DNA of 64,000 bases from an uncultured Clostridia bacterium (GTDB lineage: Bacteria > Bacillota > Clostridia > TANB77 > CAG-508), in assembly GCA_963556825.1 (NCBI GenBank), contig CAUWAM010000002.1, positions 53,135 to 117,134 of the forward strand, read 5' to 3'. Below, piece by piece: positions 6,166 through 63,065 of this stretch. The notes under the pieces were generated by a model. The model was not told the DNA's origin. It was given only the letters and a program-made list of their open reading frames with translations, and searched no databases. Positions within the stretch are counted from its first letter, which is position 1, and every line of letters begins with the position of its first letter. Position numbers and translations under genes: made by a program.

Positions 6166-6167
6166 AA

Positions 6168-6365: not shown

Positions 6366-6384
6366 AGTGTTACCTCCCACCTTT

Positions 6385-6705: not shown

Positions 6706-6723
6706 TGTCTACACCTCCATTTA

Positions 6724-8918: not shown

Positions 8919-8922
8919 CTAT

Positions 8923-10797: not shown

Positions 10798-10807
10798 TTA
10801 TAGCCTC

Positions 10808-11230: not shown

Positions 11231-11289
11231 TATTAATCACCTCCAATAAAAAAAGACAGGAATTAATCCTTGTCTTTGCTTTCATCATT

Positions 11290-11706: not shown

Positions 11707-11834
11707 ATTCCTTACCTCCTGTTGTAGTATATCATTATAATATTGCAAAATTTGTCGAAACTTGTTTTATTTTATTAAATATCAAAATTTATTATTTGTA
11801 TATAACACATTTGTGATTTAACTGTAACACATAC

Positions 11835-13625: not shown

Positions 13626-13655
13626 TTTTATTCCTCCTTTCATATATTTTTTAAT

Positions 13656-13686
13656 AATAAAAAAACACCTACATAAGTAAGTGTTT
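13656..13686 (-). terminator. intrinsic terminator immediately upstream of TMP
   Basis: Minus strand AAACACTTAC-TTAT-GTAGGTGTTT (10 bp including a G-U pair) followed by T7. Confidence 0.65.
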
Positions 13687-13704
13687 TTTATTTATACTTC
13701 ATAT

Positions 13705-14102
13705 CTATATAACTTCATTTCTTACATTTTGTTCTTTTGCTTTTTCCCATTTTTCTATTAATATCATCATTTCTTCTTTGGAATGATTTACATATTTCAA
13801 AACTATCGTTTGCATTTTATCTTTTATATATATTTTTCCAAAATTAAAAATATTATCTACTGCAGTTATATTTACTATTCTATATAATGGTACTATTTTT
13901 TGTTTTTTATTAATTACACCTGTTTCTATTATTAATTTTTCATTATTATAATAATATCTGCAATTTTTTAAAATAAAATAGTAGCATAATGGCACTATAA
14001 GAATTAAAAACATAGCCCCCCACTTGCAAGAGTCATTAATATCCCTAAAACAAGCCAAAAAACAAACCAAAACTTATTAATTTCAATGTTATAATAATTC
14101 AT
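13705..14102 (-). pseudogene. bacterial PH-domain (bPH_2/YdbS-like) membrane protein split at a poly-G tract
   Basis: ATG at 14102 with RBS aaaggag gives MNYYNIEINKFWFVFWLVLGILMTLASGG then a stop. One extra G in the G6 tract (14016-14021) would join it to …AMFLILIVPLCYY…LIIETGVINKKQKIVPLYRIVNI…. Confidence 0.6.
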
Positions 14103-14114
14103 TCTTTGCTCCTT

Positions 14115-14555
14115 TTATTTTAATCCAAATTGTGCTTTTGATGTTACTTTACCATTTTGAAAAGTAATATTAGCATTTGCTCCTATGCTTCCTTCCCCAT
14201 ACCATGAATACATTGTAGTTTTTATATTTGCTATTTCTGATTCAGATAAGACTGTCCCTTCTTCTCCTATTATTTCTACTACTTGATCATAAGTCATTCC
14301 TGTTTCGATTTTATTGAATTTTTCAAGAGTTAATTTTTCTTGTTTTTGTTCAACTGCTGTATTTGTTTGATTTGAATTATTAGTTTTATTTCCACTTCCA
14401 CTAGCAACTGCTATTGCACCTATAACTATTACTATCAATATAAAAGTTATAACTTTATGTTTTACAAAAAAATTCCTTTGGTCTTTACCACATTTAGGAC
14501 AAACTCCTTTTGAACTTACTTCTGCTCCACATTCTTTACAGTTTTTTAATGACAT
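14115..14555 (-). CDS. zinc-ribbon / TM / DUF3862-like exported protein
   Basis: CKECG…CPKCG, then a TM segment, then a C-terminal LTLEKFNKIETGMTYDQVVEIIG… domain. Confidence 0.55.
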   Translation of the reverse strand: MSLKNCKECGAEVSSKGVCPKCGKDQRNFFVKHKVITFILIVIVIGAIAVASGSGNKTNNSNQTNTAVEQKQEKLTLEKFNKIETGMTYDQVVEIIGEEGTVLSESEIANIKTTMYSWYGEGSIGANANITFQNGKVTSKAQFGLK

Positions 14556-14733
14556 AAATATTCCTCCTTTTATTTTAATCTAAAAAGTTATGTCAGCAAA
14601 TTTCGACATACTTTTTATTTTTACTATTTTATAATATAATAAAATATATTTTTTGTATGTAATACAAACGTAATTCAAATGTGTTGCATACGTATTTTAC
14701 CAAATTGTTTATAATTGATGTTAGGAGGTCACT

Positions 14734-14922
14734 ATGAATAGTTTTAAAATACCTATAATCCCATCAACAACTCAACGTTCTATTAGATTTCCAAATGATT
14801 TAATTGATGATGTAGAAAAAGCAATTCGAGGAAAAGAGACTACATTTACTGCATTTATTGTTGCTGCAACTAGACACGCAATAGATGAATTAAATAATAA
14901 TAATCATGATGATTTAACGTAA
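14734..14922 (+). CDS. ribbon-helix-helix (CopG/Arc-like) small DNA-binding protein
   Basis: QRSIRFPNDLIDDVEKAI…FTAFIVAATRHAIDEL pattern. aggaggt RBS. Divergent from 14115..14555. Confidence 0.5.
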   Translation: MNSFKIPIIPSTTQRSIRFPNDLIDDVEKAIRGKETTFTAFIVAATRHAIDELNNNNHDDLT

Positions 14923-14924
14923 AA

Positions 14925-14970
14925 TTAATAAGAACATCTGTATACTTTGTATAGCTTATGTTCTTATTAA
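14925..14970. terminator. bidirectional terminator
   Basis: 13-bp stem ttaataagaacat/atgttcttattaa, with T runs on both sides. Confidence 0.6.
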
Positions 14971-15320
14971 TCTTTTTCAGCTTTCATTAGATTTCTCATT
15001 CTTTGTATAATTTCTTCTGGAGATTGTAATTTTTGCTCTTCTTCTTTAAATAATTCTTTATAACTATCTCTAATTGGTACTATTTTTGGATTTCTACTCA
15101 TACTATCTGCCCTTATAAGTTTATTTGTTACCGCTTCTTGTAAATTAATTTCGCGTTTTAAATCATCAATTATTTTTACAAGATGTGTTTGACAATATGC
15201 ATTTACTTCTGAATATCTACTATTCCAAAACTCATGAGGTTTCATATCAAAATAATAAGCTAAAGGCTCTATTGAATATATTAACTCAATTAAATTATGA
15301 ACCTCTTTAATTTTTTCCAC
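14967..15320 (-). CDS. tail assembly chaperone, T-like part
   Basis: Position between the G-like ORF and the TMP side. Lies in the -1 frame relative to 15329..15790. Confidence 0.45.
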   Translation of the reverse strand: MEKIKEVHNLIELIYSIEPLAYYFDMKPHEFWNSRYSEVNAYCQTHLVKIIDDLKREINLQEAVTNKLIRADSMSRNPKIVPIRDSYKELFKEEEQKLQSPEEIIQRMRNLMKAEKD

Positions 15321-15328
15321 TATATCAT

Positions 15329-15790
15329 TTAGGCCTCGTAGCCTTGAAATCCCTGTTCTTGAAATTGTCTCTCTGCTATTTTGCTCATTGCATTTTCTGC
15401 TGATTTTTGAACTAAATCGTTCATATTCATTGTTGATAAAGGATTTGATGTCATTTCTTTTAGTTCTTTCTTGCTCATTTTCTTTTTGAAAAAACCCTCT
15501 TCATTTAATGCCTCTGCAATCTTTCCATAAATATCATTTGCTGTTATATTTTCTTTTCTGCAATCATCTATAAAATCATATACTTCATCTGAAGATGTAA
15601 ATGCACTTTTACCATCCTCTGTTTCGGCTAATTTAAATATAATTTTTGATAGTGCTTCTAAATCAATTATTGAATATGCTTTTGTAAAAGCTTCTTCAAA
15701 ATTTTTATTTTTTAATATGTTAGACATATCTACTATCTTTCTTGTTTTTAATACTAAATTAATTGTTTTATTTTTTGTTTCTATAATCAT
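15329..15790 (-). CDS. tail assembly chaperone, G-like
   Basis: 153-aa acidic protein directly downstream of the major tail gene. Confidence 0.5.
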   Translation of the reverse strand: MIIETKNKTINLVLKTRKIVDMSNILKNKNFEEAFTKAYSIIDLEALSKIIFKLAETEDGKSAFTSSDEVYDFIDDCRKENITANDIYGKIAEALNEEGFFKKKMSKKELKEMTSNPLSTMNMNDLVQKSAENAMSKIAERQFQEQGFQGYEA

Positions 15791-15846
15791 TTTTATCCTC
15801 TCCTTTGCAAAAGAGAGGGTTATATTTCAAACCCTCAATATTTTAA

Positions 15847-16305
15847 TTATTCAGCTGTAGGAAATCCTTTATTTTCCTTTATTTCTGAACTTCTATATAT
15901 AGTTAATTTTGATTTTAACATATCATCTATAGCAATTTCACTCATTCCAATATAGCATGTTCCTGTAAAGTACCATGTTAATGGTTTTCCTTCTTCTAAT
16001 GCTGTACTTTCTGGTAATTGGATTGCCCAATATCCGTTTGTTTTTGCTGTTTGAAGTGCTTTTAATTCATCATATTGATCTTCTTTAAATAATATTTCTA
16101 TTTCTATGTTTTCTGCTTTTTGTCTTCCTTCAGCTTGTCTTTCATCTGGAATATCTAAAGCACTGTATGTAATTCCTTCTGGTGCTTTTAAAAATTCTGG
16201 TATGCTTTGTACAAAAGCTACCTGTTTTCTTTTTGCTTCATCCTTTAAATCTTCTAATGTATCGGCATGAAATAATTTTGTCATTGTACTTGTTTTTGGT
16301 TCCAT
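15847..16305 (-). CDS. major tail protein (TP901-1/phi13-like size class)
   Basis: 152 aa; called from synteny upstream of the chaperones. Confidence 0.55.
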   Translation of the reverse strand: MEPKTSTMTKLFHADTLEDLKDEAKRKQVAFVQSIPEFLKAPEGITYSALDIPDERQAEGRQKAENIEIEILFKEDQYDELKALQTAKTNGYWAIQLPESTALEEGKPLTWYFTGTCYIGMSEIAIDDMLKSKLTIYRSSEIKENKGFPTAE

Positions 16306-16379
16306 TTTAATTCCTCCTTATTATTCTACAATTTTGTCTTGCAATTACTCTTATATCATATTTTCATTATCAAAAATAT

Positions 16380-16640
16380 TTAAAAATTCAGATTCAAATG
16401 CTGTATATTGTATTGATATTGTAATCTTTCTTCCTCTGATTTTTCTTGTTCTTTTTTATCTTTCCATTTTTTTTGTGCTGTTTGAATAGCTTTTTGAACT
16501 CGTCTGTCAAATTCTGCTTGATTTTTTCTATCTTTTAAGAAATCATCAAATGTTACAGGATTATTATTTGCTCCCGCCGGTTCATTATTTGCCCCAGTAT
16601 TAGCATTATTTAAATTTGTACTATTATCTTGTCCTTTCAT
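16380..16640 (-). pseudogene. truncated head scaffolding protein (DUF4355-like N-terminus only)
   Basis: TFDDFLKDRKNQAEFDRRVQKAIQTAQKKWK… resembles a scaffold N-terminus. Ends after 86 aa, about 70 bp before the major tail gene, with no capsid gene between them. Confidence 0.45.
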
Positions 16641-16650
16641 TTTTTACCTC

Positions 16651-16689
16651 TTTCTAGCCCCAGCCATTGTATTTCTACCCCAGCTATTG
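16651..16689 (-). repeat. tandem direct repeat CAAT(A/G)GCTGGGG(C)TAGAAA x2 just upstream of scaffold remnant
   Basis: tttctagccccagccattg (16651-16669) and tttctaccccagctattg (16672-16689). Locally GC-rich. Confidence 0.6.
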
Positions 16690-16826
16690 CTTTTTGTTAT
16701 TTTGTTTATTCTATAAAGCCTAACTACAATCAAAACGGCATAAAAATAAGAGCCTGTCGACTTGACTCTTTAATTTATAATTATAAAAATTTTAATAACT
16801 TATTTATTTTTTCTTTAATGTCATGT

Positions 16827-17087
16827 TCATTCTTTTATTAAACACCTATCTTTAATCTTATATGGACAAAATACCTTACCTTCTCTAAGATTTGTAATTT
16901 CTAAAAAAGAACAGTTTTTACACTGTTCTGGTAATTCATCTTTTATTTGTTTTAGCTTATAATTGTCTTCATACTTTTGCTTTTCTTCTATTATATTTAG
17001 TACTTCTTTACAATTATCTAATTTACATATTTTACACTTCTTATTTCCATTTGGACATACTTTATTATCTATTAAACATTGAACCAT
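16827..17087 (-). CDS. Cys-rich small protein (10 Cys)
   Basis: 86-aa ORF with CxxxxxxCxxC-type spacing. No family recognised. Confidence 0.4.
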   Translation of the reverse strand: MVQCLIDNKVCPNGNKKCKICKLDNCKEVLNIIEEKQKYEDNYKLKQIKDELPEQCKNCSFLEITNLREGKVFCPYKIKDRCLIKE

Positions 17088-17182
17088 ATGTTATTCCTCT
17101 TCTGTGCATATTAATTTATTGTCTATTCTTTTTGATATTTTTATCTGCGACTTTTTAACTTATACTAATTTTACCACATTTT

Positions 17183-17614
17183 TTAATCATTTACCGCCAA
17201 GTTTCCGCCAAGTTTTTTTAATTCATTATGTACTGCATATATCAACTCTTGATTTCTCCTTTCAAATGTTCTTTCAGACATTCCAGTTTCAATTACTTCC
17301 CATTTTGATTTGCATAATATGTAATATTTATCAAATATTATTTTGCAATCTTTATTTGTTAATTCTAGCGCTTGTACTACTGCTTTATATTCTTTTATAG
17401 ATTTCTGTAATTGCGTATTTTCTTCCAATTTTATAACACTATTTAAAACATTGTCACTTACATTGTATTGAGCTCTAGGCATTCCATCCAACTTTTGACT
17501 ACTTATACTCAATATGTCTGATCTTATGTTCAATATATTGATGCAATTATATTTGTATCTTTTTAAACATCCTTTTGAATAATTATATTCTTCTCTACTC
17601 AACTTTTTATTCAT
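17183..17614 (-). CDS. phage late transcriptional activator, ArpU/RinA-like
   Basis: 143 aa. Position is before the structural genes. C-terminal GMSERTFERRNQELIYAV HTH-like segment. Confidence 0.5.
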   Translation of the reverse strand: MNKKLSREEYNYSKGCLKRYKYNCINILNIRSDILSISSQKLDGMPRAQYNVSDNVLNSVIKLEENTQLQKSIKEYKAVVQALELTNKDCKIIFDKYYILCKSKWEVIETGMSERTFERRNQELIYAVHNELKKLGGNLAVND

Positions 17615-17808
17615 TTGTGCCCCCCTTGTTTATTCTTTATACTCTCTCTTATTAATTCATCTTTGAAACTATCTAATATTTTATATGCTCTATTTAATTG
17701 AGCTTGACTTTGCTTTCTTTTTGTTATATCTATTAAATTTATATCCTCTAATTCAGTCATTGTGTTTATTACTATATTATATATGTGATTTATTGTCATT
17801 TGTGTCAT
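17611..17808 (-). CDS. hypothetical phage protein
   Basis: 65-aa ORF; stop overlaps the next start (ATGA). Confidence 0.4.
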   Translation of the reverse strand: MTQMTINHIYNIVINTMTELEDINLIDITKRKQSQAQLNRAYKILDSFKDELIRESIKNKQGGHK

Positions 17809-17835
17809 CTCGCTTTCAATTATTTATTTCTATTA

Positions 17836-18084
17836 CTAAAAATGTTCTTCTTTTATATCGAAATATATATCATCAATTAATTCTTCTACTATGTCTAACA
17901 TTTTTATGTTTTTGCATATATCGTTTGATTTTCCTATATTTCTTATTTTTAATAACTTTTCGTATATACTTTGTTTTGCTTTATAATTTTCTTTTTTTAA
18001 TGCCTTTATTATTTCTTCTTGTTGGTCTATTATACTTCTTTGTTCTCTATTTTTATTTTTAAAATAATTTTTATTATCTATCAT
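17836..18084 (-). CDS. hypothetical phage protein
   Basis: 82-aa ORF with ggagg RBS. Confidence 0.4.
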   Translation of the reverse strand: MIDNKNYFKNKNREQRSIIDQQEEIIKALKKENYKAKQSIYEKLLKIRNIGKSNDICKNIKMLDIVEELIDDIYFDIKEEHF

Positions 18085-18220
18085 CTTTTCCTCCTATTTT
18101 CCTTTTCTTTTTAATGCTTTCTATCCATTTTTCAAATTTACTTTTTATAATCATATAATTCCATTTTAATTTTGGCGCAATTTGTGCTAGTACTAATTTT
18201 TCTACTTCATCATCTTCCAT
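18074..18220 (-). CDS. small first ORF of leftward (lytic-side) operon
   Basis: 48 codons, MEDDEVEKLVLAQIAPKLKWNY…. RBS gaaggtga. Overlaps the next gene's start. Confidence 0.3.
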   Translation of the reverse strand: MEDDEVEKLVLAQIAPKLKWNYMIIKSKFEKWIESIKKKRKIGGKDDR

Positions 18221-18252
18221 TTTTTCACCTTCTTTCTTTATAAATATCAACT

Positions 18253-18489
18253 TTGGTTAATTTTTTTTAACTCTTAATTGTAAAAAATATATCTATGAAA
18301 ATTTAATTTATCATAATATAGCTATTAATAATATTGTTAATTGATTTTTCGTACATTTCTATATTTTTTTATTTACGCCTCATCTTTTTGGTTATTTTTT
18401 TTTAACCACTCATATTATATATAATAAATAAAATTGTGTCAATAGTTTTGGTAAATTTTTTTTAACTTTTTGTTGACTTTTTTTAACCC
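18253..18489. promoter_or_regulatory. four operator-like half-palindromes TTGGTTA-T8/9-TAAC in the divergent repressor region
   Basis: 18253-18271 ttggttaattttttttaac. 18391-18408 ggttatttttttttaacc (perfect GGTTA-N8-TAACC). 18449-18466 ttggtaaattttttttaac. 18473-18489 ttgactttttttaaccc. Confidence 0.6.
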
Positions 18490-18501
18490 TTGTTATATAC
18501 T
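18473..18501 (+). promoter_or_regulatory. repressor promoter TTGACT-17-TATACT
   Basis: TTGACT at 18473-18478 and TATACT at 18496-18501. Overlapped by the fourth operator-like copy. Confidence 0.5.
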
Positions 18502-18523
18502 ATATTTAGGAGGTTTTTTATTT

Positions 18524-19243
18524 ATGTTTGATAAAATAAAATTCGCACAAATATTAAAAAATATAACAGATACTTATGTAAGTCAAAGGGATTTTTCTAA
18601 GAAATCTGGAATAAATAGAACATATCTTTCACAATATGCTAATATAAAGCTTGAAGAACCACCAAAGCCAAAAATTTTAGAAAAATTAGCTGATGCTTCT
18701 AATAACATAACTACATATGATGAACTTATGCAGGTCTGTGGCTATACCTATGTAACTACTCTTGACAATTCATCATTTGGAATTAATCCTGAATATTGGA
18801 AAATGATATTTGGAAATATTGAAAAAATAGAACTTACTCAAAAAGGCTCTACATTTTTTGCTTATTTTCTAGATAAAATATATAAGGAATTTCAAAAAAA
18901 TAATAATGAACAATTTATTATGAATTTCGATCCACAATCATTAATTCCACAAACGGATAATATTGAAGAATATACTGAATACATTAAAATTTTTTGTTTT
19001 ATTCTTTGTTCTTTTATGAGTACCAATGTTCTAAATATAAATGAAATAGAAAAAAAACAATTGCTTTCTAATATACAAGACTTATTAGAAACTACTCCTC
19101 TTCTAATAGAATTTGATGAGAAATCTGATAGTTTTAAATATACTAATATAAATACAGAAGGATTAGATGAAAATGATATTGAAGAATTAAAGAGATTTGT
19201 TGAGTTTTTAAAAACAAAAAAAAATAAAAACAATCTTCATTAA
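18524..19243 (+). CDS. XRE-family HTH repressor (CI-like) with C-terminal domain
   Basis: aggagg RBS. MFDKIKFAQILKNITDTYVSQRDFSKKSGINRTYLSQYAN is an HTH_3-type motif. Divergent from the phage genes. Confidence 0.8.
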   Translation: MFDKIKFAQILKNITDTYVSQRDFSKKSGINRTYLSQYANIKLEEPPKPKILEKLADASNNITTYDELMQVCGYTYVTTLDNSSFGINPEYWKMIFGNIEKIELTQKGSTFFAYFLDKIYKEFQKNNNEQFIMNFDPQSLIPQTDNIEEYTEYIKIFCFILCSFMSTNVLNINEIEKKQLLSNIQDLLETTPLLIEFDEKSDSFKYTNINTEGLDENDIEELKRFVEFLKTKKNKNNLH

Positions 19244-19254
19244 TTACAAAAAAG

Positions 19255-19285
19255 AAATACCAATGCATTAAAAACATTGGTATTT
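19255..19285. terminator. bidirectional terminator between repressor and rnj
   Basis: aaataccaatg/cattggtattt 11-bp stem. Confidence 0.7.
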
Positions 19286-19295
19286 CAATATTCTA

Positions 19296-21128
19296 TTACA
19301 CTTCCATAATAATTGGTATAATCATCGGATTTCTCTTTGTTTTTACAAATATATAATCTCTTAAATTTTCTCTAACAGTAGACTTAATTGTTGACCAATC
19401 ACGAATTTCTTTTTCTTCACATTTTTTAATTTCATGTCTTACAACACTCTTTACGTCATCCATTAAATTTTCTGATTCTCTAACATATACAAATCCTCTT
19501 GAAATAACATCAGGTCCTGCTACTACTTCCCCTGTTGAAGAGTCCATTGTTAATACTATTATTATTAATCCATCTTGTGATAAATGTTGTCTATCTCTTA
19601 ATACTATATTTCCAACATCTCCAACTCCAAGTCCATCTACTAATACTCTTCCATTTGGAACCATTCCTGTAAGTTTGGCTTCATCTTCACTTATTTCTAC
19701 AACTCTTCCATTTTCCATTAATACGATGTTTTTAGCTGGTATTCCCATACTCTGAGCTGTTTCGGCATGAGCCATTAATTGTCTATATTCTCCATGTACT
19801 GGTATAAAATATTTTGGTTTAGTCAATGCAAAAATTAATTTTTGTTCTTCTTGGCAAGCATGTCCAGATACGTGAACATCTGCTAATGCACTATATACAA
19901 CCTCTGCTCCAATTTGCATTAAATCATCTATTACCTTTGAAACTAGTTTTTCATTTCCTGGGATTGGATTTGCTGAAATAATTACTAAATCATTAGGTGT
20001 TATTTTAACTTTTCTGTGATCTCCTGAAGCCATTCTTGTTAGTGCTGACATTGTTTCTCCTTGACTTCCTGTTGTAATTATTACTAATTGTTCATCATTA
20101 TATGTTGACATCATATCTATGTCAATAAATAAGTCTTCTGGACAATCTATATATCCTAATTCTCTTGCTGTATTTATCATATTTATCATACTTCTGCCAC
20201 ATATTGCTATTTTTCTTTTGTATTTTACTGCTGAATTTACTATTTGTTGAACTCTATGAACGTTTGATGCAAATGTAGCTACTACTATTCTTTTTGTACA
20301 TCCATCAAATAAGTTATCAAATACTGGTCCTATTGAACTTTCAGACATCGTAAATCCTTTTCGTTCAGCATTTGTACTATCTGACATTAATGCTAATATT
20401 CCTTCATTTCCTAATTCTGCAATTCTTCCAAAGTCCATTATTTTCCCATCGATTGGTGTATAATCAACTTTGAAATCACCTGTGTGTAAAACTGTTCCTA
20501 TAGGTGTTTTTATTGCTAACATTACTGAATCTGGTATACTATGTGTACTTCTTATAAATTCTACTTTAAAGTTCTTTCCTAATGTTATTGTTTCTCCTTG
20601 CATTACTTCTATTAGTTTAGAACTTCTTAATATTTTATGTTCTTCTAATTTATTTCTAATTAATCCCATTGCTAGTCTTGGTGCATATACTGGAATATTT
20701 ATTTGTTTTAATATATATGGTACACTTCCTATATGATCTTCGTGTCCATGTGTTATTATTAATCCCTTTATTTTATCTACATTTTTTTGTAAATATGTGA
20801 TATCTGGTATTACTAAATCTATCCCCAACATATCATCTTCTGGGAATGATAAACCACAGTCTACTACTATCATTTCATCTTCATATTCAAAAACTGTTAT
20901 ATTTTTACCAACTTCGTGTAATCCTCCTAATGGAATAATTTTTAATTTTCCTTTTTTGAATATGCTATCTTTGCTTGTTTTAGTTTTTCTTGTTTCTTTT
21001 GTTTCTTTTATATCTCTAGTTTTTCTTGTTGTTTTTGTATTTTTTGTTGCTCCTATATTTTTTCTTGGAGCTCTTGGCTTTCTTTGTGTTTTTTCTTCTT
21101 TCTTTTTGTCTATATTCTCTTGTGTCAT
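19296..21128 (-). CDS. rnj: ribonuclease J
   Basis: Metallo-beta-lactamase HGHEDHIG motif, beta-CASP layout, 610 aa. About 55-aa K/T/R-rich N-terminal extension. Confidence 0.9.
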   Translation of the reverse strand: MTQENIDKKKEEKTQRKPRAPRKNIGATKNTKTTRKTRDIKETKETRKTKTSKDSIFKKGKLKIIPLGGLHEVGKNITVFEYEDEMIVVDCGLSFPEDDMLGIDLVIPDITYLQKNVDKIKGLIITHGHEDHIGSVPYILKQINIPVYAPRLAMGLIRNKLEEHKILRSSKLIEVMQGETITLGKNFKVEFIRSTHSIPDSVMLAIKTPIGTVLHTGDFKVDYTPIDGKIMDFGRIAELGNEGILALMSDSTNAERKGFTMSESSIGPVFDNLFDGCTKRIVVATFASNVHRVQQIVNSAVKYKRKIAICGRSMINMINTARELGYIDCPEDLFIDIDMMSTYNDEQLVIITTGSQGETMSALTRMASGDHRKVKITPNDLVIISANPIPGNEKLVSKVIDDLMQIGAEVVYSALADVHVSGHACQEEQKLIFALTKPKYFIPVHGEYRQLMAHAETAQSMGIPAKNIVLMENGRVVEISEDEAKLTGMVPNGRVLVDGLGVGDVGNIVLRDRQHLSQDGLIIIVLTMDSSTGEVVAGPDVISRGFVYVRESENLMDDVKSVVRHEIKKCEEKEIRDWSTIKSTVRENLRDYIFVKTKRNPMIIPIIMEV

Positions 21129-37844: not shown

Positions 37845-39164
37845 TTAATATTTATATCCTATTATTTTTACAGGAATACAAGTAAAATTAACTTTGTTTG
37901 TACTTCCCCAATAACTTGCTTTAGCTTTAAATGCAGTATAATTTACATATTCAAAATTTCTTTTAACTACTTTGTTCGAATATCCTGATCCTGATATTAA
38001 AGCAAAAGTATAACCTTTATAAACTCTTTGGACCTCATAATCTGGTTCAGTATTATAAAACTTAAATATAACATCAAAATAGTCATAATTGTCATTTGCC
38101 AAATTTATTATTTGTCCTTCCTCAAAAGACTTATATTCTTTATCTGGATTTTCCCATAAAGTTTGTCCTACTACTTGTGAATCTCCTGTTTCTTGTACTG
38201 TCATGTAATTATCAATATAACTTTCATATTTATAGCCTATTATTTTTACAGGAATACAAGTCTTATTATTTTTGCTTGTACTTCCCCAATAACTTGCTCC
38301 AGCTTTAAATGTAGTATCATTTACATATTCAAATTTTCTTCTAGCTACTTTGTTCGAATATCCTGATCCTGATATTAAAGAAAAAGTATAACCTTTATAA
38401 ACTCTTTGGACATAATAATCTGGTTCAGTATTATAATACTTAAATATAACATCAAAATAGTCATAATTGTCATTTGCTAAATTTATTGTTTGTCCTTCTT
38501 CAAAAGAGTTATATTCTTTATCTGAATTTTCCCATAAAGTTTGTACCACTACTTGTGAATCTCCTGTTTCTTGTGCTGTCATGTAATTATCAATATATCT
38601 TTCATATTTATAGCCTATTATTTTTACAGGAATACAAGTCTTATTATTTTTGCTTGTACTTCCCCAATAACTTGCTCCAGCTTTAAATGTAGTATCATTT
38701 ACATATTCAAATTTTCTTCTAGCTACTTTGTTCGAATATCCTGATCCTGATATTAAAGAAAAAGTATAACCTTTATAAACTCTTTGGACATAATAATCTG
38801 GTTCAGTATTATAATACTTAAATATAACATCAAAATAGTCATAATTGTCATTTGCTAAATTTATTGTTTGTCCTTCTTCAAAAGAGTTATATTCTTTATC
38901 TGAATTTTCCCATAAAGTTTGTACCACTACTTGTGAATCTCCTGTTTCTTGTGCTGTCATATAATTATCAATATATCTTTCATAATCATTTAATATTTTC
39001 TCTTCATTTTTTGTTGCATTTTCTGTTGCATTTTTTGCTTGTTTGGCATTTTCAAATAATCCTGTGTTTGTTATTGCTTGTATGCTTATTCCTGCTAATA
39101 TTAACAACAAAATTATTGTTATTACTAATGCTACAAGTGTTATACCTTTACTTTCACTTTTCAT
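37845..39164 (-). CDS. pilin-like-leader surface protein with three 126-aa tandem domains
   Basis: MKSESKGITLVALVITIILLLILAG leader, with RBS ggggga before the second ATG. Followed by 3 x 126-aa repeats. Confidence 0.7.
   Translation of the reverse strand: MKSESKGITLVALVITIILLLILAGISIQAITNTGLFENAKQAKNATENATKNEEKILNDYERYIDNYMTAQETGDSQVVVQTLWENSDKEYNSFEEGQTINLANDNYDYFDVIFKYYNTEPDYYVQRVYKGYTFSLISGSGYSNKVARRKFEYVNDTTFKAGASYWGSTSKNNKTCIPVKIIGYKYERYIDNYMTAQETGDSQVVVQTLWENSDKEYNSFEEGQTINLANDNYDYFDVIFKYYNTEPDYYVQRVYKGYTFSLISGSGYSNKVARRKFEYVNDTTFKAGASYWGSTSKNNKTCIPVKIIGYKYESYIDNYMTVQETGDSQVVGQTLWENPDKEYKSFEEGQIINLANDNYDYFDVIFKFYNTEPDYEVQRVYKGYTFALISGSGYSNKVVKRNFEYVNYTAFKAKASYWGSTNKVNFTCIPVKIIGYKY
37848..38981 (-). 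repeat. 3 x 378-bp in-frame tandem repeat
   Basis: Units are 38604-38981, 38226-38603 and 37848-38225. The first two look identical wherever I compared them at nucleotide level and encode identical protein. The third is diverged. Confidence 0.9.
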
Positions 39165-39218
39165 TTTCCATTCCCCCATTTTTATATTTATATTCTTTTA
39201 AATTGTTATTTTTTAAAG

Positions 39219-39279
39219 TCAAAAAGATAGCAATATTAACTTGTACCTAATTTTGATTTAAGTATAATATTCCTACCTT
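39219..39279 (-). terminator. leader hairpin plus T-run (attenuator-like), copy A
   Basis: Minus strand AAGGTAGGAATATTATACTT-(loop)-CAAGTTAATATTGCTATCTT then TTT. About 20-bp AT-rich stem with one mismatch and one bulge. Confidence 0.4.
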
Positions 39280-39352
39280 TTATTTTATTATTTACTAAAC
39301 CACCTATGCGTGTGTATATGTATATTCCCGCAACGATTATAGCGTTTTTCAT
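39236..39352 (-). CDS. candidate 38-codon leader ORF, copy A
   Basis: MKNAIIVAGIYIYTRIGGLVNNKIKGRNIILKSKLGTS. Weak RBS aaggaaaa. Its stop codon lies inside the 3' arm of the hairpin. Confidence 0.3.
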   Translation of the reverse strand: MKNAIIVAGIYIYTRIGGLVNNKIKGRNIILKSKLGTS

Positions 39353-39494
39353 TTTTATTTTCCTTTTCTTTTGTTTTGTTTCACTTTTAATATAAGTTAT
39401 ATTATCATATGTTATATATTTTTGTCAAGTAATTTATTCTAGAAGTATAGCATTTTGTTGTTAGTAAACAAGAAACCTCCCCTTTAATATAATT

Positions 39495-40832
39495 CTACTT
39501 AATATAAAGTACCACACGGAAACCGATGCCATGATGAGTGTGCATAACGGGGCAAACGCCGTAGCGGCGGCACGCAGGATCTCCGCTAGAATTGTCAAGG
39601 TAATCGCCTCCACGAATCACGCGGTATTGACCACTAGTTGCATGATGTGAATCTTCTTCTGTCCACTCCCATAAGTTACCTGCTATATCAAATATATGAT
39701 ATTTCTCTGTTGTTGCACTTGCACCTGTTGTTAATAAATCTCCTTTGTTTTCGTTACTAGTTACATAATCCTTTGTAGTAGATGTTTCTGTACTACCAAA
39801 CACTGGTAAGTACCAATAATTAGAAGAATAATATGCTGTTGCTTTTCTTCCTGTATATTCTATTGCTGTATTCTTATAATTTCCCCAAGAACTACTATTT
39901 GTCATATCAGAACTTGTTAAGTCTGTTTTATTTATTAATGTATTTAATATTACATCCCATTGTGTTCCTGTAATCAAACCACTACTTACATAATTGTTAT
40001 TATACATACTTTCTGCATTTGCTTTTGAATGTGTCCAATCTACAAAGTTCCAAGGTGCTAACCCTGCTTTACTTTGTGGTATTTTATATACATTATATAC
40101 TTGGTTATGTCCTGCACTTTTTTGTGTAGAAGTAAACTCTGACATATCACTCGCAAGTCCTGCTTCATATCTTCCTACATAAAATCCACCATATTTTTCT
40201 ATTTGTGATAATTCTGCTTTTGGTATTGTTGTATCCCATCCAGCATTTTGTTTTTCCCAAGATGTTTTTGTATATGCACTTGTTGAACAAGGTATCCATA
40301 CAAATTGATTTCCTGTTAAACTTGTTGTATATGCATATGTTGTTTTGTCTGTTGTTCCATCATATTTATCTGCTTCATTATCTGATATTATTACACCTGT
40401 ATCAAGATTTCCACCTACATAATAAAATCCGTATGGTACAGGTACGCTTTCTCCACCACCTACTGATACTGCATATACTGTTGCTACTTTTGTAACTTCT
40501 GTTGTTTCTAATCCATTGCTTGTTTTTATATATTTAACTGTTTCCGTTCCCCATTCATTTGGTAATTTTACTATTGTTCCTAGATCTTGTGGATCTTCTG
40601 TCGTATTTTCTGGTAAGTCTTTGTTATACTCTGCTAATTGTTTTTCTAATTCATTCAAACTTTGTTCTTCTGCAATTTGTGCATTAATATATTCTTGTTT
40701 TGCTTGTTGTGCTCTATTTATCAAGCCATTATCCCCCATTAGAGTTGCAATTGTTATTCCTGCTAATATTAACAACAAAATTATTGTAATTACTAACACT
40801 ACAAGTGTTATACCTTTACTTTTATTTTCCAT
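39495..40832 (-). CDS. pilin-like-leader protein with C-terminal FGE/SUMF1 (C-type-lectin-fold) domain
   Basis: MENKSKGITLVVLVITIILLLILAG leader. GGFYVGRYEAG, GNLWEWTEE, RGG…IGFRVV motifs. Confidence 0.8.
   Translation of the reverse strand: MENKSKGITLVVLVITIILLLILAGITIATLMGDNGLINRAQQAKQEYINAQIAEEQSLNELEKQLAEYNKDLPENTTEDPQDLGTIVKLPNEWGTETVKYIKTSNGLETTEVTKVATVYAVSVGGGESVPVPYGFYYVGGNLDTGVIISDNEADKYDGTTDKTTYAYTTSLTGNQFVWIPCSTSAYTKTSWEKQNAGWDTTIPKAELSQIEKYGGFYVGRYEAGLASDMSEFTSTQKSAGHNQVYNVYKIPQSKAGLAPWNFVDWTHSKANAESMYNNNYVSSGLITGTQWDVILNTLINKTDLTSSDMTNSSSWGNYKNTAIEYTGRKATAYYSSNYWYLPVFGSTETSTTKDYVTSNENKGDLLTTGASATTEKYHIFDIAGNLWEWTEEDSHHATSGQYRVIRGGDYLDNSSGDPACRRYGVCPVMHTHHGIGFRVVLYIK
39508..39640 (-). 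other. candidate DGR variable region (VR1)
   Basis: About 56% G+C by hand count over 39511-39630, in an AT-rich gene. 23 of 26 codons between RGG and IGFR are NNY. Confidence 0.4.
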
Positions 40833-40880: not shown

Positions 40881-41990
40881 TTAATCTGATAATTTCAGTT
40901 GAACACTAGACTGAAGAGAAACTAGCGGGCAAAACGCACGATTGTGGTTAAAATTGCTGTAGTCCACATTGTTCACATTGCCCCCCAGAACAAACATCAC
41001 AGCGATATCGTTGCTAGATGAGGGAGATGCTAACCAGTAATATTGGTTACTTCCTGGCCAATACATGCTGTCTATTTGACTATCTGTTTGTACTGTATAA
41101 TTTGATGTATTAGTATAGTATCCATCTACTGCTTTTGAATTTGTTGTAGGACCAACTCCATATCCATAATTGCTACTATTATATGGATATTTATAAAATA
41201 ATCTTGTTCTTGGTGATGTTTCTGTTCTTTCTGTATTATCTGGTGTAGCATTTGTTAGATTATAATGAGTATTGAAACCATCCATCATCATTTCCAAACT
41301 TGGTGCCCCTACTATATAATTTACTTTACTTCCTATTTCTGTACTTGCTCCTGATGTTACTAAACCTTCCCAATTATTTGTATTTGTTAGCCATGTTACT
41401 GCTTTCATATTAGAATTAATAGATTTAGGTGGCGTTACTCCTGGCTTATATAATTCTGGATTTAAATTTCTTATTTTTATATTTTCTGCTGTATCAAAAC
41501 TTATATCTGTCATTGGCAAATTATAATTATTTGAAGTACAATCTGCTTTTAAGTATACTGTTCCTGCTCCATCTTTAAATTTATTGTCAAAATCAATATA
41601 ATATAGTCTATATGTTGTAGAAAATGTATAATTACTTGAACCTACTTCTACACTTTCCGTCCCACCTACGGTTTTATAATTTGTTACCTTTTTTCCTAAA
41701 TATTGTCCAAAGTTATCTTTGGTTAATATTACTTTACTTCCATTTGCTAGTGTTACTTCTACTCCACTTCCGCTATTTCCACCGTCTTGTTCTGTTATAT
41801 AGTCTGATAAATTTGAAAGCATTTGTTCTTCCTCTTGGGCTGTTTTTTTATATTCATCTATAGTTTTTTGGGCTTTAGCGATTATGCCTCCATCTGTCAT
41901 TTTTCTTATTACTACTGCTGACAAAATTAATAATATTACTATTGTGATTACTAACGCTACGAGTGTTATCCCTTTACTTTTATTTTCCAT
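40881..41990 (-). CDS. pilin-like-leader protein with DUF1566-like C-terminal module
   Basis: MENKSKGITLVALVITIVILLILS leader, with ggagg RBS before the internal ATG. C-terminus is YWLASPSSSNDIAVMFVLGGNVNNVDYSNFNHNRAFCPLVSL. Confidence 0.65.
   Translation of the reverse strand: MENKSKGITLVALVITIVILLILSAVVIRKMTDGGIIAKAQKTIDEYKKTAQEEEQMLSNLSDYITEQDGGNSGSGVEVTLANGSKVILTKDNFGQYLGKKVTNYKTVGGTESVEVGSSNYTFSTTYRLYYIDFDNKFKDGAGTVYLKADCTSNNYNLPMTDISFDTAENIKIRNLNPELYKPGVTPPKSINSNMKAVTWLTNTNNWEGLVTSGASTEIGSKVNYIVGAPSLEMMMDGFNTHYNLTNATPDNTERTETSPRTRLFYKYPYNSSNYGYGVGPTTNSKAVDGYYTNTSNYTVQTDSQIDSMYWPGSNQYYWLASPSSSNDIAVMFVLGGNVNNVDYSNFNHNRAFCPLVSLQSSVQLKLSD
40929..41012 (-). other. candidate DGR variable region (VR2), Asn-codon rich
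   Basis: About 47% G+C by hand count over 40921-41030. AAT/AAC/GAC/TAC/AGC/CAC/TGC codon run. Confidence 0.3.
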
Positions 41991-42046
41991 TTGCTCTTCC
42001 TCCATCATTTTTATATTTTCATCGTTTTAAATGTTGTTTTTTAACG

Positions 42047-42107
42047 TCAAAAAGATAGCAATATTAACTTGCACATGCTTTTGATACAAGTATAATATTC
42101 CTACCTT
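42047..42107 (-). terminator. leader hairpin plus T-run (attenuator-like), copy B
   Basis: Same arms as copy A (42088-42107 and 42052-71), a different loop, and a T5 run following. Confidence 0.4.
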
Positions 42108-42134
42108 TTATTTTATTATTTCTTTTTTTATTTA

Positions 42135-42200
42135 CTAAATTACCTGTGTGTGTGTGTGTGTGTGTGTGTGTACTCCCTCAACGATTATAGCGTTTTTCAT
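42135..42200 (-). CDS. leader ORF copy B, currently truncated by repeat-dependent frame
   Basis: MKNAIIVEGV(HT)4QVI* with (CA)13. The frame homologous to copy A would continue to a TAA at 42064-42066. Confidence 0.3.
   Translation of the reverse strand: MKNAIIVEGVHTHTHTHTQVI
42145..42170. repeat. (TG)13 / (CA)13 dinucleotide microsatellite
   Basis: 26 nt of perfect TG repeat. The homologous position in copy A is a degenerate gcgtgtgtatatgtatat. Confidence 0.95.
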
Positions 42201-42267
42201 CTTTATTTTCCTTTTCTTTTGTTTTATTATTCATATTGAAAACTTACTTCAAAAGTATCTTTTTCAA

Positions 42268-61545: not shown

Positions 61546-62997
61546 TTATTGTTTAAATCTTATTTTATCAATTTCATAATTACTTTTTATTTCTTTTTGA
61601 CTTAATTCTCTGTTATATATTCTTATTGCCCCAAGTTTCATTTGACAAAACAATGCATCTCCTGCTCTAGAACCTAAATATATTGGATAATTTAAAAATT
61701 TGGTATTAGATATATCATAATTGTTACCACTACTCTCATTTAATTTTATGTATTCACTATCTTTATAAAGTTCAATAAATGAATTATATTTTTTATTTGT
61801 ATTTATAATTGCCGTATAAACACTTAATGTTTTAGGTTCAAAAACATTATCTCCAGTATATTTTAAATTATATCCCCTTTCATGATGATATGTAATACGT
61901 ATATTATTAATTCCCCCTTCATTAATAGTAATACCATATCCAGTATTATTTTCATTCCAATTTCTTGAGGATTCAAAAATCATTTGTGTTTTTTGATTAT
62001 CACTTATATCCAACAATACAAATTGAACTGTTATAACATTACTTTCTTTATAATCAACTTCAGATATTGTCTTTGCAAAATCATCAATACCATCAAATGA
62101 TAAATATTTATCCCCCCAGATTGCTCCTGTTATTTGAGCATCATTATTACTTTGACTCAGATCTTTCCATATAGTAGTATCTGAACTATGTTCATTTTCT
62201 CCTAAATTATTTATTGCATCATAAGATAATATAAGACTATCTGAAACATACTCATTATAAAGAGTCATTGACTTCATTCCTAATGAAACTTCATCTCCAT
62301 GAACAACACTTATCGTATATTCTCCTGGCTCATTAATATAAAAAGTTAATTCATTTGAAGTTTCCCAAAAATCATTTGTTATCAATTTATATTTAATCTG
62401 CCAATTACTAACATATCCATCATATTTAATGTTTGATACCTCTACTTTCCACCTATTTCCCTCTTTTTGTGTATTAATTTCAAAACTTCCTGTTTGTGGA
62501 TTTTTATTATTATATTCAACATTATACTGTCCATTTTCTAATTGCTCAGTCATATAATATACTTTATCTTTGTATTCAAAACCAATATAACTAACAACAT
62601 ATCTTTTTTCCACATTAATAAGATATGGTCTTGTTACACTATCTAATTCTAAATTTTCTTTTATCCATTCCTTACTACAATATCTAAAACCATTTTTTAC
62701 TTGTTCTATTTCTTCATTTGTTTTATCTTTATATATAATTTTTTTTATTTCATCTATTTCTAATACTGATATTTGATTATCAGTTAATTTTTCTCCTATA
62801 TCTGTTTTATTGTTTTGATTTAATTCATTCACTTTTGTCTGCATAACTTTTAATTCTGAGGTAAATTCATTATATGCTGCATAATCAATGGCTTGTTTCC
62901 AAGAAATTATACCAACAGATGCTAATATTAATAATATGATTATCATTACAACTAACACCATTAATGTTATCCCTTTTTCTTCTTTTATTTTTTTCAT
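61546..62997 (-). CDS. pilin-like-leader protein with C-terminal LamG/concanavalin-like domain
   Basis: aggagga RBS. MKKIKEEKGITLMVLVVMIIILLILA leader. C-terminal …LSFDGIDDFAKT…IRIYNRELSQKEIKSNY. Confidence 0.7.
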   Translation of the reverse strand: MKKIKEEKGITLMVLVVMIIILLILASVGIISWKQAIDYAAYNEFTSELKVMQTKVNELNQNNKTDIGEKLTDNQISVLEIDEIKKIIYKDKTNEEIEQVKNGFRYCSKEWIKENLELDSVTRPYLINVEKRYVVSYIGFEYKDKVYYMTEQLENGQYNVEYNNKNPQTGSFEINTQKEGNRWKVEVSNIKYDGYVSNWQIKYKLITNDFWETSNELTFYINEPGEYTISVVHGDEVSLGMKSMTLYNEYVSDSLILSYDAINNLGENEHSSDTTIWKDLSQSNNDAQITGAIWGDKYLSFDGIDDFAKTISEVDYKESNVITVQFVLLDISDNQKTQMIFESSRNWNENNTGYGITINEGGINNIRITYHHERGYNLKYTGDNVFEPKTLSVYTAIINTNKKYNSFIELYKDSEYIKLNESSGNNYDISNTKFLNYPIYLGSRAGDALFCQMKLGAIRIYNRELSQKEIKSNYEIDKIRFKQ

Positions 62998-63020
62998 TGG
63001 TTTCCTCCTATACAAAAATT

Positions 63021-63065
63021 GCTTTTTTGCGAGATGCATATATAAAACTCCCAACGCAAAAAAGC
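63021..63065 (-). promoter_or_regulatory. 5' leader hairpin upstream of the LamG pilin-like gene
   Basis: 11-bp perfect stem GCTTTTTTGCG/CGCAAAAAAGC with a 23-nt loop, followed by AATTTTTG on the minus strand. Confidence 0.35.

What the first reader, a model, noticed from the sequence alone, without database searches (positions are those of the whole stretch)
40929..41012. Second candidate DGR variable region on a DUF1566-like scaffold, still rich in AAY codons
The adjacent upstream gene (40881..41990) ends with YWLASPSSSNDIAVMFVLGGNVNNVDYSNFNHNRAFCPLVSL. This matches the DUF1566/Lcl-type pattern YW.S…A..V.F..G…(N-rich)…VR.V used by many DGR targets. The patch is about 47% G+C by hand count. 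Its codons are AAT GTG AAC AAT GTG GAC TAC AGC AAT TTT AAC CAC AAT CGT GCG TTT TGC, an AAY-dominated run like a lightly diversified VR (close to template). Two different CLec-type VR scaffolds in one operon would be a multi-target DGR arrangement displayed on pilin-like anchors. I do not know of a described example of that combination.
Basis: partly seen in the sequence, partly recalled or inferred. Interest (0 to 1): 0.7.

Follow-up and report, generated by a model that had tools for sequence, protein, structure and literature searches.

The report
Orphan DGR variable region, pilin-like adhesin
The 3' end of this pilin-like surface-protein gene is a real variable region of the kind written by diversity-generating retroelements, but no template repeat or reverse transcriptase lies within reach and the sequence is identical in four other assemblies, so it looks like a stranded or dormant target rather than an active hypermutation site.

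Summary
Gene 40881..41990 (-) ends in ...YWLASPSSSNDIAVMFVLGGNVNNVDYSNFNHNRAFCPLVSLQ.... This patch and the neighbouring gene's 3' end are the only two 126-nt stretches with GC >= 0.44 in the 64 kb.

The DGR reading holds at family level. More than 1000 homologues keep a fixed scaffold with hypervariable positions between. In the three cassettes I fully aligned, the homologue sits in target - accessory - bAvd - TR - RT order. Two of these have VR/TR mismatches that are almost all at TR adenines (17:1 and 22:1). The window keeps the invariant 3' element CCGCTAG-T-TTCT, with the VR-type T.

For this locus the defining parts are missing. There is no TR, RT or Avd in the 64 kb, nor in 10 kb to the left or 4 kb to the right. 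The VR fits no known family TR (20 adenine-site against 14 other mismatches, plus a 9-nt deletion and a 9-nt duplication). Both VRs are identical in four other assemblies.

The two adjacent VRs belong to two separate DGR lineages, whose RTs are 39% identical. They are not one multi-target DGR. The C-type-lectin fold (DUF6273 / Lcl_C-like) is only weakly supported.

Verdict: a DGR-derived VR that is orphaned or quiescent, and a new member of a known kind.

The parts
40881..41990 (-). Gene for a 369-aa pilin-like surface protein. The mechanical ORF extends to 42008. It belongs to a family of more than 1000 proteins from uncultured gut Clostridia that serve as DGR targets.
   Evidence: ORF. RBS and start codon. 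Exact product P0121 on 7 contigs. 1018 homologues at about 50% identity. AF2 model with pLDDT 86.
41907..41990 (-). Prepilin-like N-terminus MENKSKGITLVALVITIVILLILSAVVI: a class III signal-like motif plus a hydrophobic helix. Position +5 after the Gly is Ala, not Glu.
   Evidence: Pfam N_methyl E = 0.0017, 18.3 bits against a cut-off of 21.2. 64 of 69 members match N_methyl at E <= 1. The family profile hits pilins in the PDB (geopilin E = 0.013, MshA, PilA5).
40911..41036 (-). VR-equivalent segment (126 nt, WLASPS...CPLVSLQ). It is collinear with the verified VR of L001 (6590-6715) and with that VR's TR.
   Evidence: Alignments. GC 46% against 31% for the rest of the gene. Hypervariable columns in the family alignment.
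40915..40937 (-). IMH-like 3' element GCGTTTTGCCCGCTAGTTTCTCT. It is identical in 6 VRs from other loci whose proteins are about 50-64% identical to this one, and it carries the VR-type T where TRs carry C.
   Evidence: CCGCTAG[T/C]TTCT is invariant in 16 VR/TR sequences: all 12 VRs have T and all 4 TRs have C. Synonymous sites of the 5' WLASPS motif vary freely.
39495..40832 (-). Adjacent pilin-like gene (445 aa) with an FGE-sulfatase-type C-terminus. It is a homologue of a second, separate DGR target family.
   Evidence: Pfam FGE-sulfatase E = 6e-7. Family hypervariability. The 77%-identical homologue P0244 sits next to bAvd and RT on a conjugative element.
39508..39623 (-). VR1-equivalent segment of the neighbour gene (RVIRGG...GFRVV). 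It is the other GC island of the window.
37845..39179 (-). Third pilin-like gene of the tsf-pyrH insertion. It carries three 378-nt tandem repeats and no VR. It is context only, and it is the only part of the locus that differs between assemblies.

Best explanation
Gene 40881..41990 (-) encodes a surface protein anchored by a type IV-pilin-like N-terminal helix. Its C-terminal domain resembles the DUF6273 / Lcl_C branch of C-type-lectin-like DGR target domains. The last roughly 42 codons (40911..41036) are a DGR variable region by descent.

In related genomes this segment is rewritten from an adenine-rich template repeat. A DGR reverse transcriptase does this, working with bAvd and a MutS_I-type accessory protein. 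Those cassettes ride on integrative or mobilisable elements or sit in chromosomes.

In this genome segment the VR stands alone. It keeps the conserved 3' IMH-like element and the GC-rich, template-derived codon usage, but no TR, RT or Avd is within reach. It matches no known TR of the family, it has acquired a 9-nt deletion and a 9-nt tandem duplication, and it is fixed across independent assemblies.

The most likely state is therefore an orphaned or currently quiescent DGR target. It was diversified in the past, or acquired already diversified, and is now a stable allele of a putative adhesin.

Shown: family-level DGR linkage, absence of the cassette locally, and invariance across assemblies. 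Inferred: adhesin function, surface or pilus-tip display, and present inactivity.
For: Family-level DGR linkage:
- The family alignment has a fixed scaffold, YWLASPSA-x5-V[ML]xV-x4-GGxV-x9-AFCPLVSL, with hypervariable positions between.
- P0002 (64% identical) lies in target - 174 aa - bAvd - TR - RT order. Its VR/TR pair is 86% identical, with 17 of 18 mismatches at TR adenines.
- L007/L010 is the same kind of pair, with 22 of 23 mismatches at adenines and an intact 323-aa RT.
- L006 and L018 are further cassettes.
- CCGCTAG-T-TTCT is invariant at synonymous sites and the window carries the VR-type T.
- The two VRs are the only GC >= 0.44 islands in the 64 kb.

Absence of the cassette here:
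- No repeat of the VR anywhere in the window.
- No RT, Avd or accessory protein by tblastn with either lineage's proteins.
- None in the 10 kb to the left or the 4 kb to the right on the source contig.

Evidence that the VR is static:
- The exact protein is on 7 contigs and its 90% cluster has only 2 members.
- In four other assemblies both genes and both VRs carry no substitutions. Three (ERZ926642, ERZ27227038, ERZ926610) are identical over 7.4-21 kb outside the repeat gene; ERZ1764592 also carries a 48-nt in-frame deletion at 41797-41844.
- At best the VR differs from known TRs at 20 adenine sites and 14 other sites, and it carries a 9-nt deletion and a 9-nt tandem duplication.

Precedent: remote and leftover DGR targets are documented in Treponema denticola (PMC4891356).
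Against: - The rest of the genome could not be searched. The source contig alone has about 105 kb more on the left and about 36 kb more on the right, and DGR cassettes of this family ride on mobile elements that may be binned elsewhere.
- The compared assemblies are almost clonal, with no SNPs outside one repeat gene. Their identity therefore says little about slow or episodic diversification.
- The perfect IMH-like element and the undecayed GC-rich codons in a low-GC genome (26% mean for 126-nt windows) argue that the VR was written recently or is kept competent.
- A cognate TR carrying the same indels would erase the 'non-adenine mismatch' argument.
Confidence: 0.6

Rival explanations
1. VR2 is an active remote target. 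A DGR cassette elsewhere in the same genome (for example on an integrative or conjugative element) carries a TR with the same 9-nt deletion and duplication, and it rewrites VR2 in trans through the conserved IMH-like element.
For: - The IMH-like 23-mer is intact, with the VR-type T.
- GC-rich template-type codons are retained.
- Family members are often found away from any RT (L004, L008, L011, L022). Some lineages have nearly identical scaffolds with VRs only 61-66% identical (P0091, P0108, P0117).
- Cassettes sit on mobile elements.
- Remote targets are known in T. denticola.
Against: - No TR or RT in about 78 kb around the gene.
- The VR is identical in all four other assemblies, and the 90% cluster holds no VR variant.
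- The assemblies do not break at the VR.
- No TR seen so far has the window's indel pattern.
Confidence: 0.25
2. Present-day variation of this C-terminus comes from recombination or gene conversion between paralogues rather than from retrohoming. The VR moves as a block between scaffolds.
For: - 27 pairs of family members share an identical VR while their scaffolds are only 73-99.7% identical, for example P0010/P0014 at 73%.
- Several paralogues can sit on one contig (three in L022).
- The conserved flanks (WLASPS and CPLVSL) would support homologous exchange.
Against: - Recombination cannot create the adenine-specific pattern seen in cassette-linked members.
- No second family member or silent copy exists in the window.
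- This mechanism can add to the DGR origin but cannot replace it.
Confidence: 0.07
3. The patch has nothing to do with a DGR. It is an ordinary Asn-rich C-terminus of a low-GC organism and the resemblance is chance.
For: - Asn enrichment over the whole 42-codon VR is not significant (P = 0.086).
- There is no TR in the window.
- The window protein has no Pfam hit to DUF1566/Lcl_C.
Against: - 64%-identical and other homologues sit in verified cassettes.
- A 23-nt DNA element is identical across proteins only about 50-64% identical.
- The GC island is at the 0.2% tail of the window.
- Hypervariability is confined to this segment.
Confidence: 0.03

Closest known systems
Remote and 'leftover' DGR target genes of Treponema denticola (tvpA family; PMC4891356)
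   Same: VR-bearing target genes lie far from, or entirely without, the RT/TR core. They are recognised by similarity to TRs known from other strains and are interpreted as remnants of DGR gain and loss.
   Different: In T. denticola the orphan VRs still match a known TR type (19 of 21 changes at adenines). Here no known TR fits (20:14). The scaffold is pilin-anchored rather than a lipoprotein, and the hosts are uncultured gut Clostridia.
DUF6273-domain DGR targets of Firmicutes gut phages (tentaclins, Faecalibacterium prophages; PMC10743442, PMC11792537)
   Same: The best structural matches of the AF2 model are DUF6273 proteins (BFVD, probability 0.97-0.99). In those proteins the VR maps to the C-terminal end of a CLec-like domain and forms beta-hairpins. 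Here the VR also falls on confidently modelled strands 323-373.
   Different: Those are phage tail or decoration proteins. This one is a cellular protein with a prepilin-like N-terminus. Pfam DUF6273 is reached only below threshold, in 7 of 69 family members (best E = 0.01), and not by the window protein. TM-scores are low (0.2-0.27).
Lcl_C / DUF1566 (PF07603) C-type-lectin DGR targets such as Legionella LdtA
   Same: The motif logic is the same: YW-x-[AS]S ... V-x-V ... G ... then a hydrophobic-Cys-Pro strand at the very C-terminus, with an Asn-rich template. A sub-threshold Lcl_C hit in P0021 maps residues 296-344 onto model positions 63-111 of 117, which is the VR region.
   Different: No member reaches the gathering score (best E = 0.088) and the window protein has no hit at E <= 1. 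The N-terminal anchor is different.
DGR-diversified pilus adhesins of Bacteroides Type V pili (bioRxiv 2024.11.15.621889)
   Same: The concept is the same: a DGR diversifies the ligand-binding domain of a pilus-associated protein in a gut commensal.
   Different: That is a different pilus system (Type V, lipoprotein-type assembly) and a different phylum. Those DGRs are shown to be active. Here the pilus association is inferred from the N-terminus only, and activity is not shown.
Bordetella phage BPP-1 Mtd/Brt DGR
   Same: The cassettes of the homologues have the canonical parts: Avd, TR, RT, adenine-specific mutagenesis, and a conserved element at the 3' end of the VR that differs from the TR at a diagnostic base.
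   Different: No GC-rich hairpin is detectable downstream of the VR (z-scores around 0). There is an extra MutS_I-type accessory gene. The hosts are cellular or mobile elements rather than a phage.

Membership tests
DGR variable region (active target) | A cognate template repeat whose differences from the VR are almost all at TR adenines | tested here: not met
   No copy of 40881-41100 exists anywhere in the 64 kb. Against the TRs of L001, L010 and L018 the best model gives 20 adenine-site and 14 other mismatches, compared with 17:1 and 22:1 in verified pairs.
DGR variable region (active target) | A DGR-clade reverse transcriptase (usually with Avd) in the same genome | tested here: not met
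   tblastn with the RT, bAvd and accessory protein of both lineages finds nothing in the window. Gene tables for the 10 kb to the left and 4 kb to the right show none. A genome-wide test is not possible with these tools.
DGR variable region (active target) | Sequence heterogeneity confined to the VR between closely related genomes or within populations | tested here: not met
   Both genes and both VRs carry no substitutions in four other assemblies, and the 90% cluster has no VR variant. Power is limited because the strains are near-clonal. Reads are not available.
DGR target family (by descent) | Homologues located in target-Avd-TR-RT cassettes with adenine-specific VR/TR mismatches | tested here: met
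   L001-L003, L007/L010, L006 and L018. P0022/P0125 and P0043/P0126 share the same longest-contig lengths, which hints that each pair lies on one contig.
DGR target family (by descent) | Conserved IMH-type element at the 3' end of the VR, distinct from the TR version | tested here: met
   GCGTTTTGCCCGCTAG-T-TTCTCT at 40915..40937. CCGCTAG[T/C]TTCT is invariant in 16 sequences, with T in all 12 VRs and C in all 4 TRs.
DGR target family (by descent) | Hypervariable residues confined to a C-terminal patch on an otherwise conserved scaffold | tested here: met
   Family alignment. Pairs with 99% scaffold identity but VRs 61-66% identical.
Lcl_C / DUF1566 (PF07603) | Match to the Pfam model at the gathering score | tested here: not met
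   The window protein has no hit at E <= 1. 7 of 69 members hit below threshold, best E = 0.088. The P0021 hit scores 10.7 bits against a cut-off of 34.9.
DUF6273 (PF19789) | Match to the Pfam model at the gathering score, or clear structural equivalence | tested here: inconclusive
   7 of 69 members hit below threshold, best E = 0.01. Foldseek against BFVD puts DUF6273 proteins on top (E = 3e-4, probability 0.97-0.99), but TM is 0.2-0.27 and rmsd 11-13 A because the query has several domains.
C-type lectin fold | Significant structural match to solved CLec domains | tested here: inconclusive
Type IV pilin / pseudopilin | Prepilin N-terminal cleavage/methylation motif followed by a hydrophobic helix, with Glu at +5 | tested here: inconclusive
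   N_methyl scores 18.3 bits against a cut-off of 21.2, E = 0.0017. 64 of 69 members match at E <= 1. PDB pilins are hit at E = 0.013-0.7. Position +5 is Ala, not Glu (sequence). No pilus machinery genes were found among the ORFs scanned at 50.7-64 kb.

The most novel reading that the evidence does not exclude
Resident chromosomal pilin-like adhesin genes may act as standing 'landing pads' for DGR cassettes that travel on integrative or conjugative elements.

On this reading, the strictly conserved IMH-like end keeps each resident VR writable. Any incoming element that carries a compatible TR and RT could then re-diversify the host's own adhesins in trans. The window would show two such pads side by side, one for each of two unrelated mobile DGR lineages, inserted between tsf and pyrH.

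The evidence does not exclude this:
- Cassettes of both lineages sit on mobile elements.
- RT-less family members are common and keep the invariant 3' element.
Probability: 0.15. Interest if true: 0.7.

Novelty: new member of a known kind. Interest (0 to 1): 0.35.

Why it matters
DGRs are densest in gut microbiomes, yet most catalogued targets are defined by an adjacent RT. This locus shows that a large family of pilin-anchored putative adhesins in uncultured gut Clostridia (more than 1000 proteins) is DGR-linked. It also shows that many members, including this one, sit far from or without any cassette. RT-anchored surveys will therefore undercount them, and a raw-sequence reader can over-call them as active.

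It gives a simple DNA-level marker, CCGCTAG-T/C-TTCT, that tells VRs from TRs in this system. If the stranded VRs are still writable by mobile cassettes, that would be a way for a mobile element to remodel host adhesins. As it stands, this locus is an ordinary, probably inactive relic.

Tried and rejected
- TR search inside the window, with the repeat finder and two blastn settings: nothing.
- RT, Avd and accessory-protein search by tblastn with both lineages' proteins: only chance hits. The best, E = 0.056 at 15069-15446, lies in a phage-tail-like gene block with no RT.
- Exact-pattern scans with GCGTTTTGCCCGCTAGNTTCTCT. GTDB genomes gave 6 loci, none from the window's species. JGI metagenomes and IMG/VR gave none.
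- Hunt for the strain's own RT through RT homologues. There are 2391 hits. The two with a similar source profile (P0172, P0123) come from other samples. I abandoned this as a lottery.
- Extending the window: 10 kb to the left and 4 kb to the right hold housekeeping genes and genes with no Pfam assignment, with no RT or Avd.
- A hairpin downstream of the VR, as in BPP-1: folding energies are no better than shuffles in 8 loci.
- Promoter and terminator scan: counts equal those of shuffled sequence, so it is uninformative.
- Annotated plasmids (PLSDB) and phages (INPHARED): no homologue of the protein.
- Looking up PRJEB4391 for the habitat: the search matched only longer accession numbers.

Full report
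**1. The observation**

The window holds an ORF at 40881..42008 on the minus strand. A GGAGG ribosome-binding site lies 8 nt upstream of the ATG at 41990, and the public protein collection holds exactly the 369-aa product (P0121).

The C-terminus reads ...YYWLASPSSSNDIAVMFVLGGNVNNVDYSNFNHNRAFCPLVSLQSSVQLKLSD, and the quoted codons are exact. The full segment 40911..41036 is 46% GC. The rest of the gene is 31%, and 126-nt windows across the 64 kb average 26%. Only 0.2% of 126-nt windows reach that value, and all of them fall in this patch or in the 3' end of the next gene, 39461-39697.

Asn enrichment is significant in the 14-codon core (6/14, P about 9e-4). It is not significant over all 42 codons (7/42, P = 0.086).

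**2. What the family is**

A search of the protein collection gave 1018 homologues. Most are full length at about 50% identity, and none has a precomputed Pfam domain. Their alignment shows a rigid scaffold, YWLASPSA-x5-V[ML]xV-x4-GGxV-x9-AFCPLVSLKS. The x positions take mostly the residues that adenine changes in AAY codons can reach.

The closest homologue on a long contig is P0002, 64% identical. It lies in the order target, 174-aa accessory gene, bAvd, a 126-nt repeat of the target's 3' end, then an RVT_1 gene. This block sits inside an element with an integrase and a Mob_Pre relaxase. The VR and TR of that locus differ at 18 positions, 17 of them adenines in the TR. The one exception is T against C in CTAG-T/C-TTC.

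I scanned GTDB genomes with the shared 23-mer GCGTTTTGCCCGCTAGNTTCTCT. It returned six loci, five from uncultured Clostridia/Clostridium MAGs and one on a 2.7-kb contig binned as Candidatus Saccharibacteria.
- One contig carries both a VR (L007) and a TR (L010) next to an intact 323-aa RT. 22 of the 23 mismatches are at adenines.
- L006 carries another full cassette. Its TR did not match the scan pattern and was found by blastn.
- L018, reached through an RT homologue (P0123), is a further cassette.

The family is therefore a bona fide DGR target family.

Across 16 VR and TR sequences the 3' core CCGCTAG[T/C]TTCT never varies, even at synonymous sites. All 12 VRs have T and all 4 TRs have C. 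By contrast, every four-fold site of the equally conserved WLASPS motif varies. This behaves like an IMH / IMH* pair. The window has the element intact at 40915..40937, with the VR-type T.

**3. What is, and is not, in this window**

- No second copy of the VR exists in the 64 kb, under the repeat finder or permissive blastn.
- tblastn with the RT, bAvd and accessory protein of this lineage, and with the RT and bAvd of the neighbour's lineage, finds nothing. The best chance hit lies in a phage-tail-like block with no RT.
- The window corresponds to positions 115,507-179,506 of a 219,893-bp ENA contig. A further 10 kb to the left holds housekeeping genes. The 4 kb to the right holds genes with little or no Pfam assignment, and no RT or Avd.
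- The gene sits with two other pilin-like genes between tsf and pyrH.

Compared with the family's TRs, which are about 90% alike across cassettes, the window VR needs a 9-nt deletion before the GG motif and a 9-nt tandem duplication (AATGTGAAC|AATGTGGAC) after it. Even then it shows 20 adenine-site and 14 other mismatches. It was not written by any TR seen so far.

**4. Is it being diversified now?**

The exact protein is on 7 contigs. Its 90%-identity cluster has only one other member, which differs by an N-terminal 48-nt in-frame deletion and not in the VR.

Three loci, from ERZ926642, ERZ27227038 and ERZ926610, are identical to the window over 7.4-21 kb apart from the tandem-repeat gene 37845..39179. 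The fourth, from ERZ1764592, also carries that 48-nt in-frame deletion at 41797-41844. Both VRs are base-for-base identical in all four. The neighbour's protein is alone in its cluster, on 7 contigs.

An active DGR would be expected to give VR variants on such a clonal background. None is seen. The strains are so close that slow or episodic activity cannot be excluded, and I had no reads.

Elsewhere in the family both behaviours occur:
- Scaffolds 99% identical with VRs 61-66% identical (P0091, P0108, P0117).
- Identical VRs on scaffolds only 73-90% identical (for example P0010/P0014), which suggests block transfer or long stasis.

**5. Fold and anchor**

AlphaFold2 with 69 homologues gave a confident model: pLDDT 86, above 90 over most of residues 81-375 (ORF numbering from 42008), with the VR on strands 323-373.

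- Foldseek against the PDB gave only weak hits. Several are C-type lectin domains, but at E >= 1.8.
- Foldseek against BFVD ranked DUF6273 phage proteins on top (E about 3e-4, probability 0.97-0.99, low TM), with DUF1566 proteins further down.
- Pfam scans of 69 members gave sub-threshold hits to DUF6273 (7 members, best E = 0.01) and Lcl_C (7 members, best E = 0.088). The window protein had none.
- One Lcl_C hit maps onto the VR region.

DUF6273 is described as a CLec-like DGR target domain of Firmicutes phages, with the VR at its C-terminal end (PMC10743442, PMC11792537). The 'DUF1566-like CLec scaffold' reading is therefore plausible but not demonstrated.

The N-terminus is pilin-like. N_methyl scores just below threshold, 64 of 69 members match it, and PDB pilins are hit at E = 0.013. 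Position +5 is Ala rather than Glu. From general knowledge of GspK/PilX-type minor pilins, that fits a tip subunit, but this is inference only.

**6. The 'two scaffolds, one DGR' idea**

The neighbour gene, 39495..40832, has an FGE-sulfatase-type C-terminus. Its family shows its own hypervariable pattern, and a 77%-identical homologue lies next to bAvd and an RT on a conjugative element.

That RT is only 39% identical to the RT of the VR2-type cassettes. The two VRs share no sequence, and the two domains show no profile similarity.

So the window holds two stranded targets of two different DGR lineages. It is not one multi-target DGR.

**7. Mechanism and verdict**

Most likely (about 0.6): a DGR-derived VR in a pilin-anchored putative adhesin, now orphaned or quiescent. 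That it is DGR-derived I put at about 0.9.

Main rival (about 0.25): an active remote target of a cassette elsewhere in the genome.

Orphan and remote targets are documented (PMC4891356). Pilin-type and pilus-adhesin targets have been listed or shown (PMC11661182; bioRxiv 2024.11.15.621889).

I file it as a new member of a known kind, of modest interest. The more interesting unexcluded reading is that such resident VRs stay writable by DGR cassettes arriving on mobile elements.

Noticed in passing
L020:12804-14713 (gut metagenome contig, homologue of window gene 39495..40832): Downstream of the DGR RT, a gene-free stretch holds a tandem array (period 317 nt, 5.9 copies) of six different adenine-rich, TR-like copies of the VR. 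The expressed VR is fully explained only as a mosaic of them (0 unexplained positions). The best single copy gives 10 adenine-site and 3 other mismatches. A multi-TR array with mosaic use is not something I found described in the papers I searched.
   Followed up: partly
L018:2138-2260 and L018:3650-3775: Both the TR and the VR of this cassette carry an in-frame TGA (GTATGA where relatives have GTGATG). The target gene is therefore called truncated at 353 aa inside its own VR. The stop appears to have been written from the template. The VR is also 3 nt shorter than the TR.
   Followed up: no
L001:8162-9121 (same in L002 and L003): The RT of the cassette nearest to the window gene is split by an in-frame stop into 160-aa and 132-aa ORFs in three independent samples. 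Its VR/TR pair still shows a clean adenine-only pattern.
   Followed up: no
L006 (reverse strand) VR against TR: The VR is 6 nt longer than its own TR and has non-adenine mismatches. VR/TR indels therefore occur even where the cassette is adjacent.
   Followed up: no
window 37845-39179 (-): The third pilin-like gene has three 378-nt tandem repeats, each encoding a roughly 126-aa unit. It is the only region that differs between otherwise identical assemblies. Blocks of about 18 substitutions swap between repeat copies, which points to gene conversion among the repeats or to assembly ambiguity.
   Followed up: partly
window 39194-39380 and 42022-42228: The intergenic region upstream of gene 40881..41990 is duplicated at 89% identity upstream of the third pilin-like gene. 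It includes a TG-rich tract ((TG)n upstream of gene 40881..41990, a degenerate version in the other copy) and a promoter-like TTGACA-16-GATAAT at 39428-39401. A 38-aa ORF is called there in related contigs.
   Followed up: no
window 41797-41844: A 48-nt in-frame deletion polymorphism (16 aa in the helical linker after the pilin-like helix) is present in the ERZ1764592 assembly (L005).
   Followed up: yes
window about 5400-19300: A phage-tail-like gene block, with a 602-aa tape-measure-like protein, Gp10_C, DUF859 and Amidase_2 hits, and small regulators. It contains no RT. It may be a defective prophage or a tailocin.
   Followed up: partly
window 61546-63054 (-): A fourth protein with the same pilin-like N-terminus (65% nucleotide identity over 82 nt) but a Laminin_G_3 / concanavalin-like C-terminal domain and no VR. 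Several small genes with no Pfam assignment follow it on the neighbouring contig (L015).
   Followed up: no
L022:3195-9134: Three paralogues of the VR2 family lie within 6 kb, each with a different VR. The contig ends 71 nt after the last one. Multiple targets per genome seem common in this family.
   Followed up: partly
Family proteins P0006, P0010, P0013, P0014 and other groups: 27 pairs of family members share an identical, fully diversified VR while their scaffolds are only 73-99.7% identical. This suggests the VR block moves by recombination or stays fixed for long periods.
   Followed up: partly
L001:6774-7298 and L018:2652-3101: The accessory gene between the target and bAvd in VR2-type cassettes carries a MutS_I domain hit in L018. 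L020 has a MutS_I gene about 2 kb downstream of its TR array.
   Followed up: no
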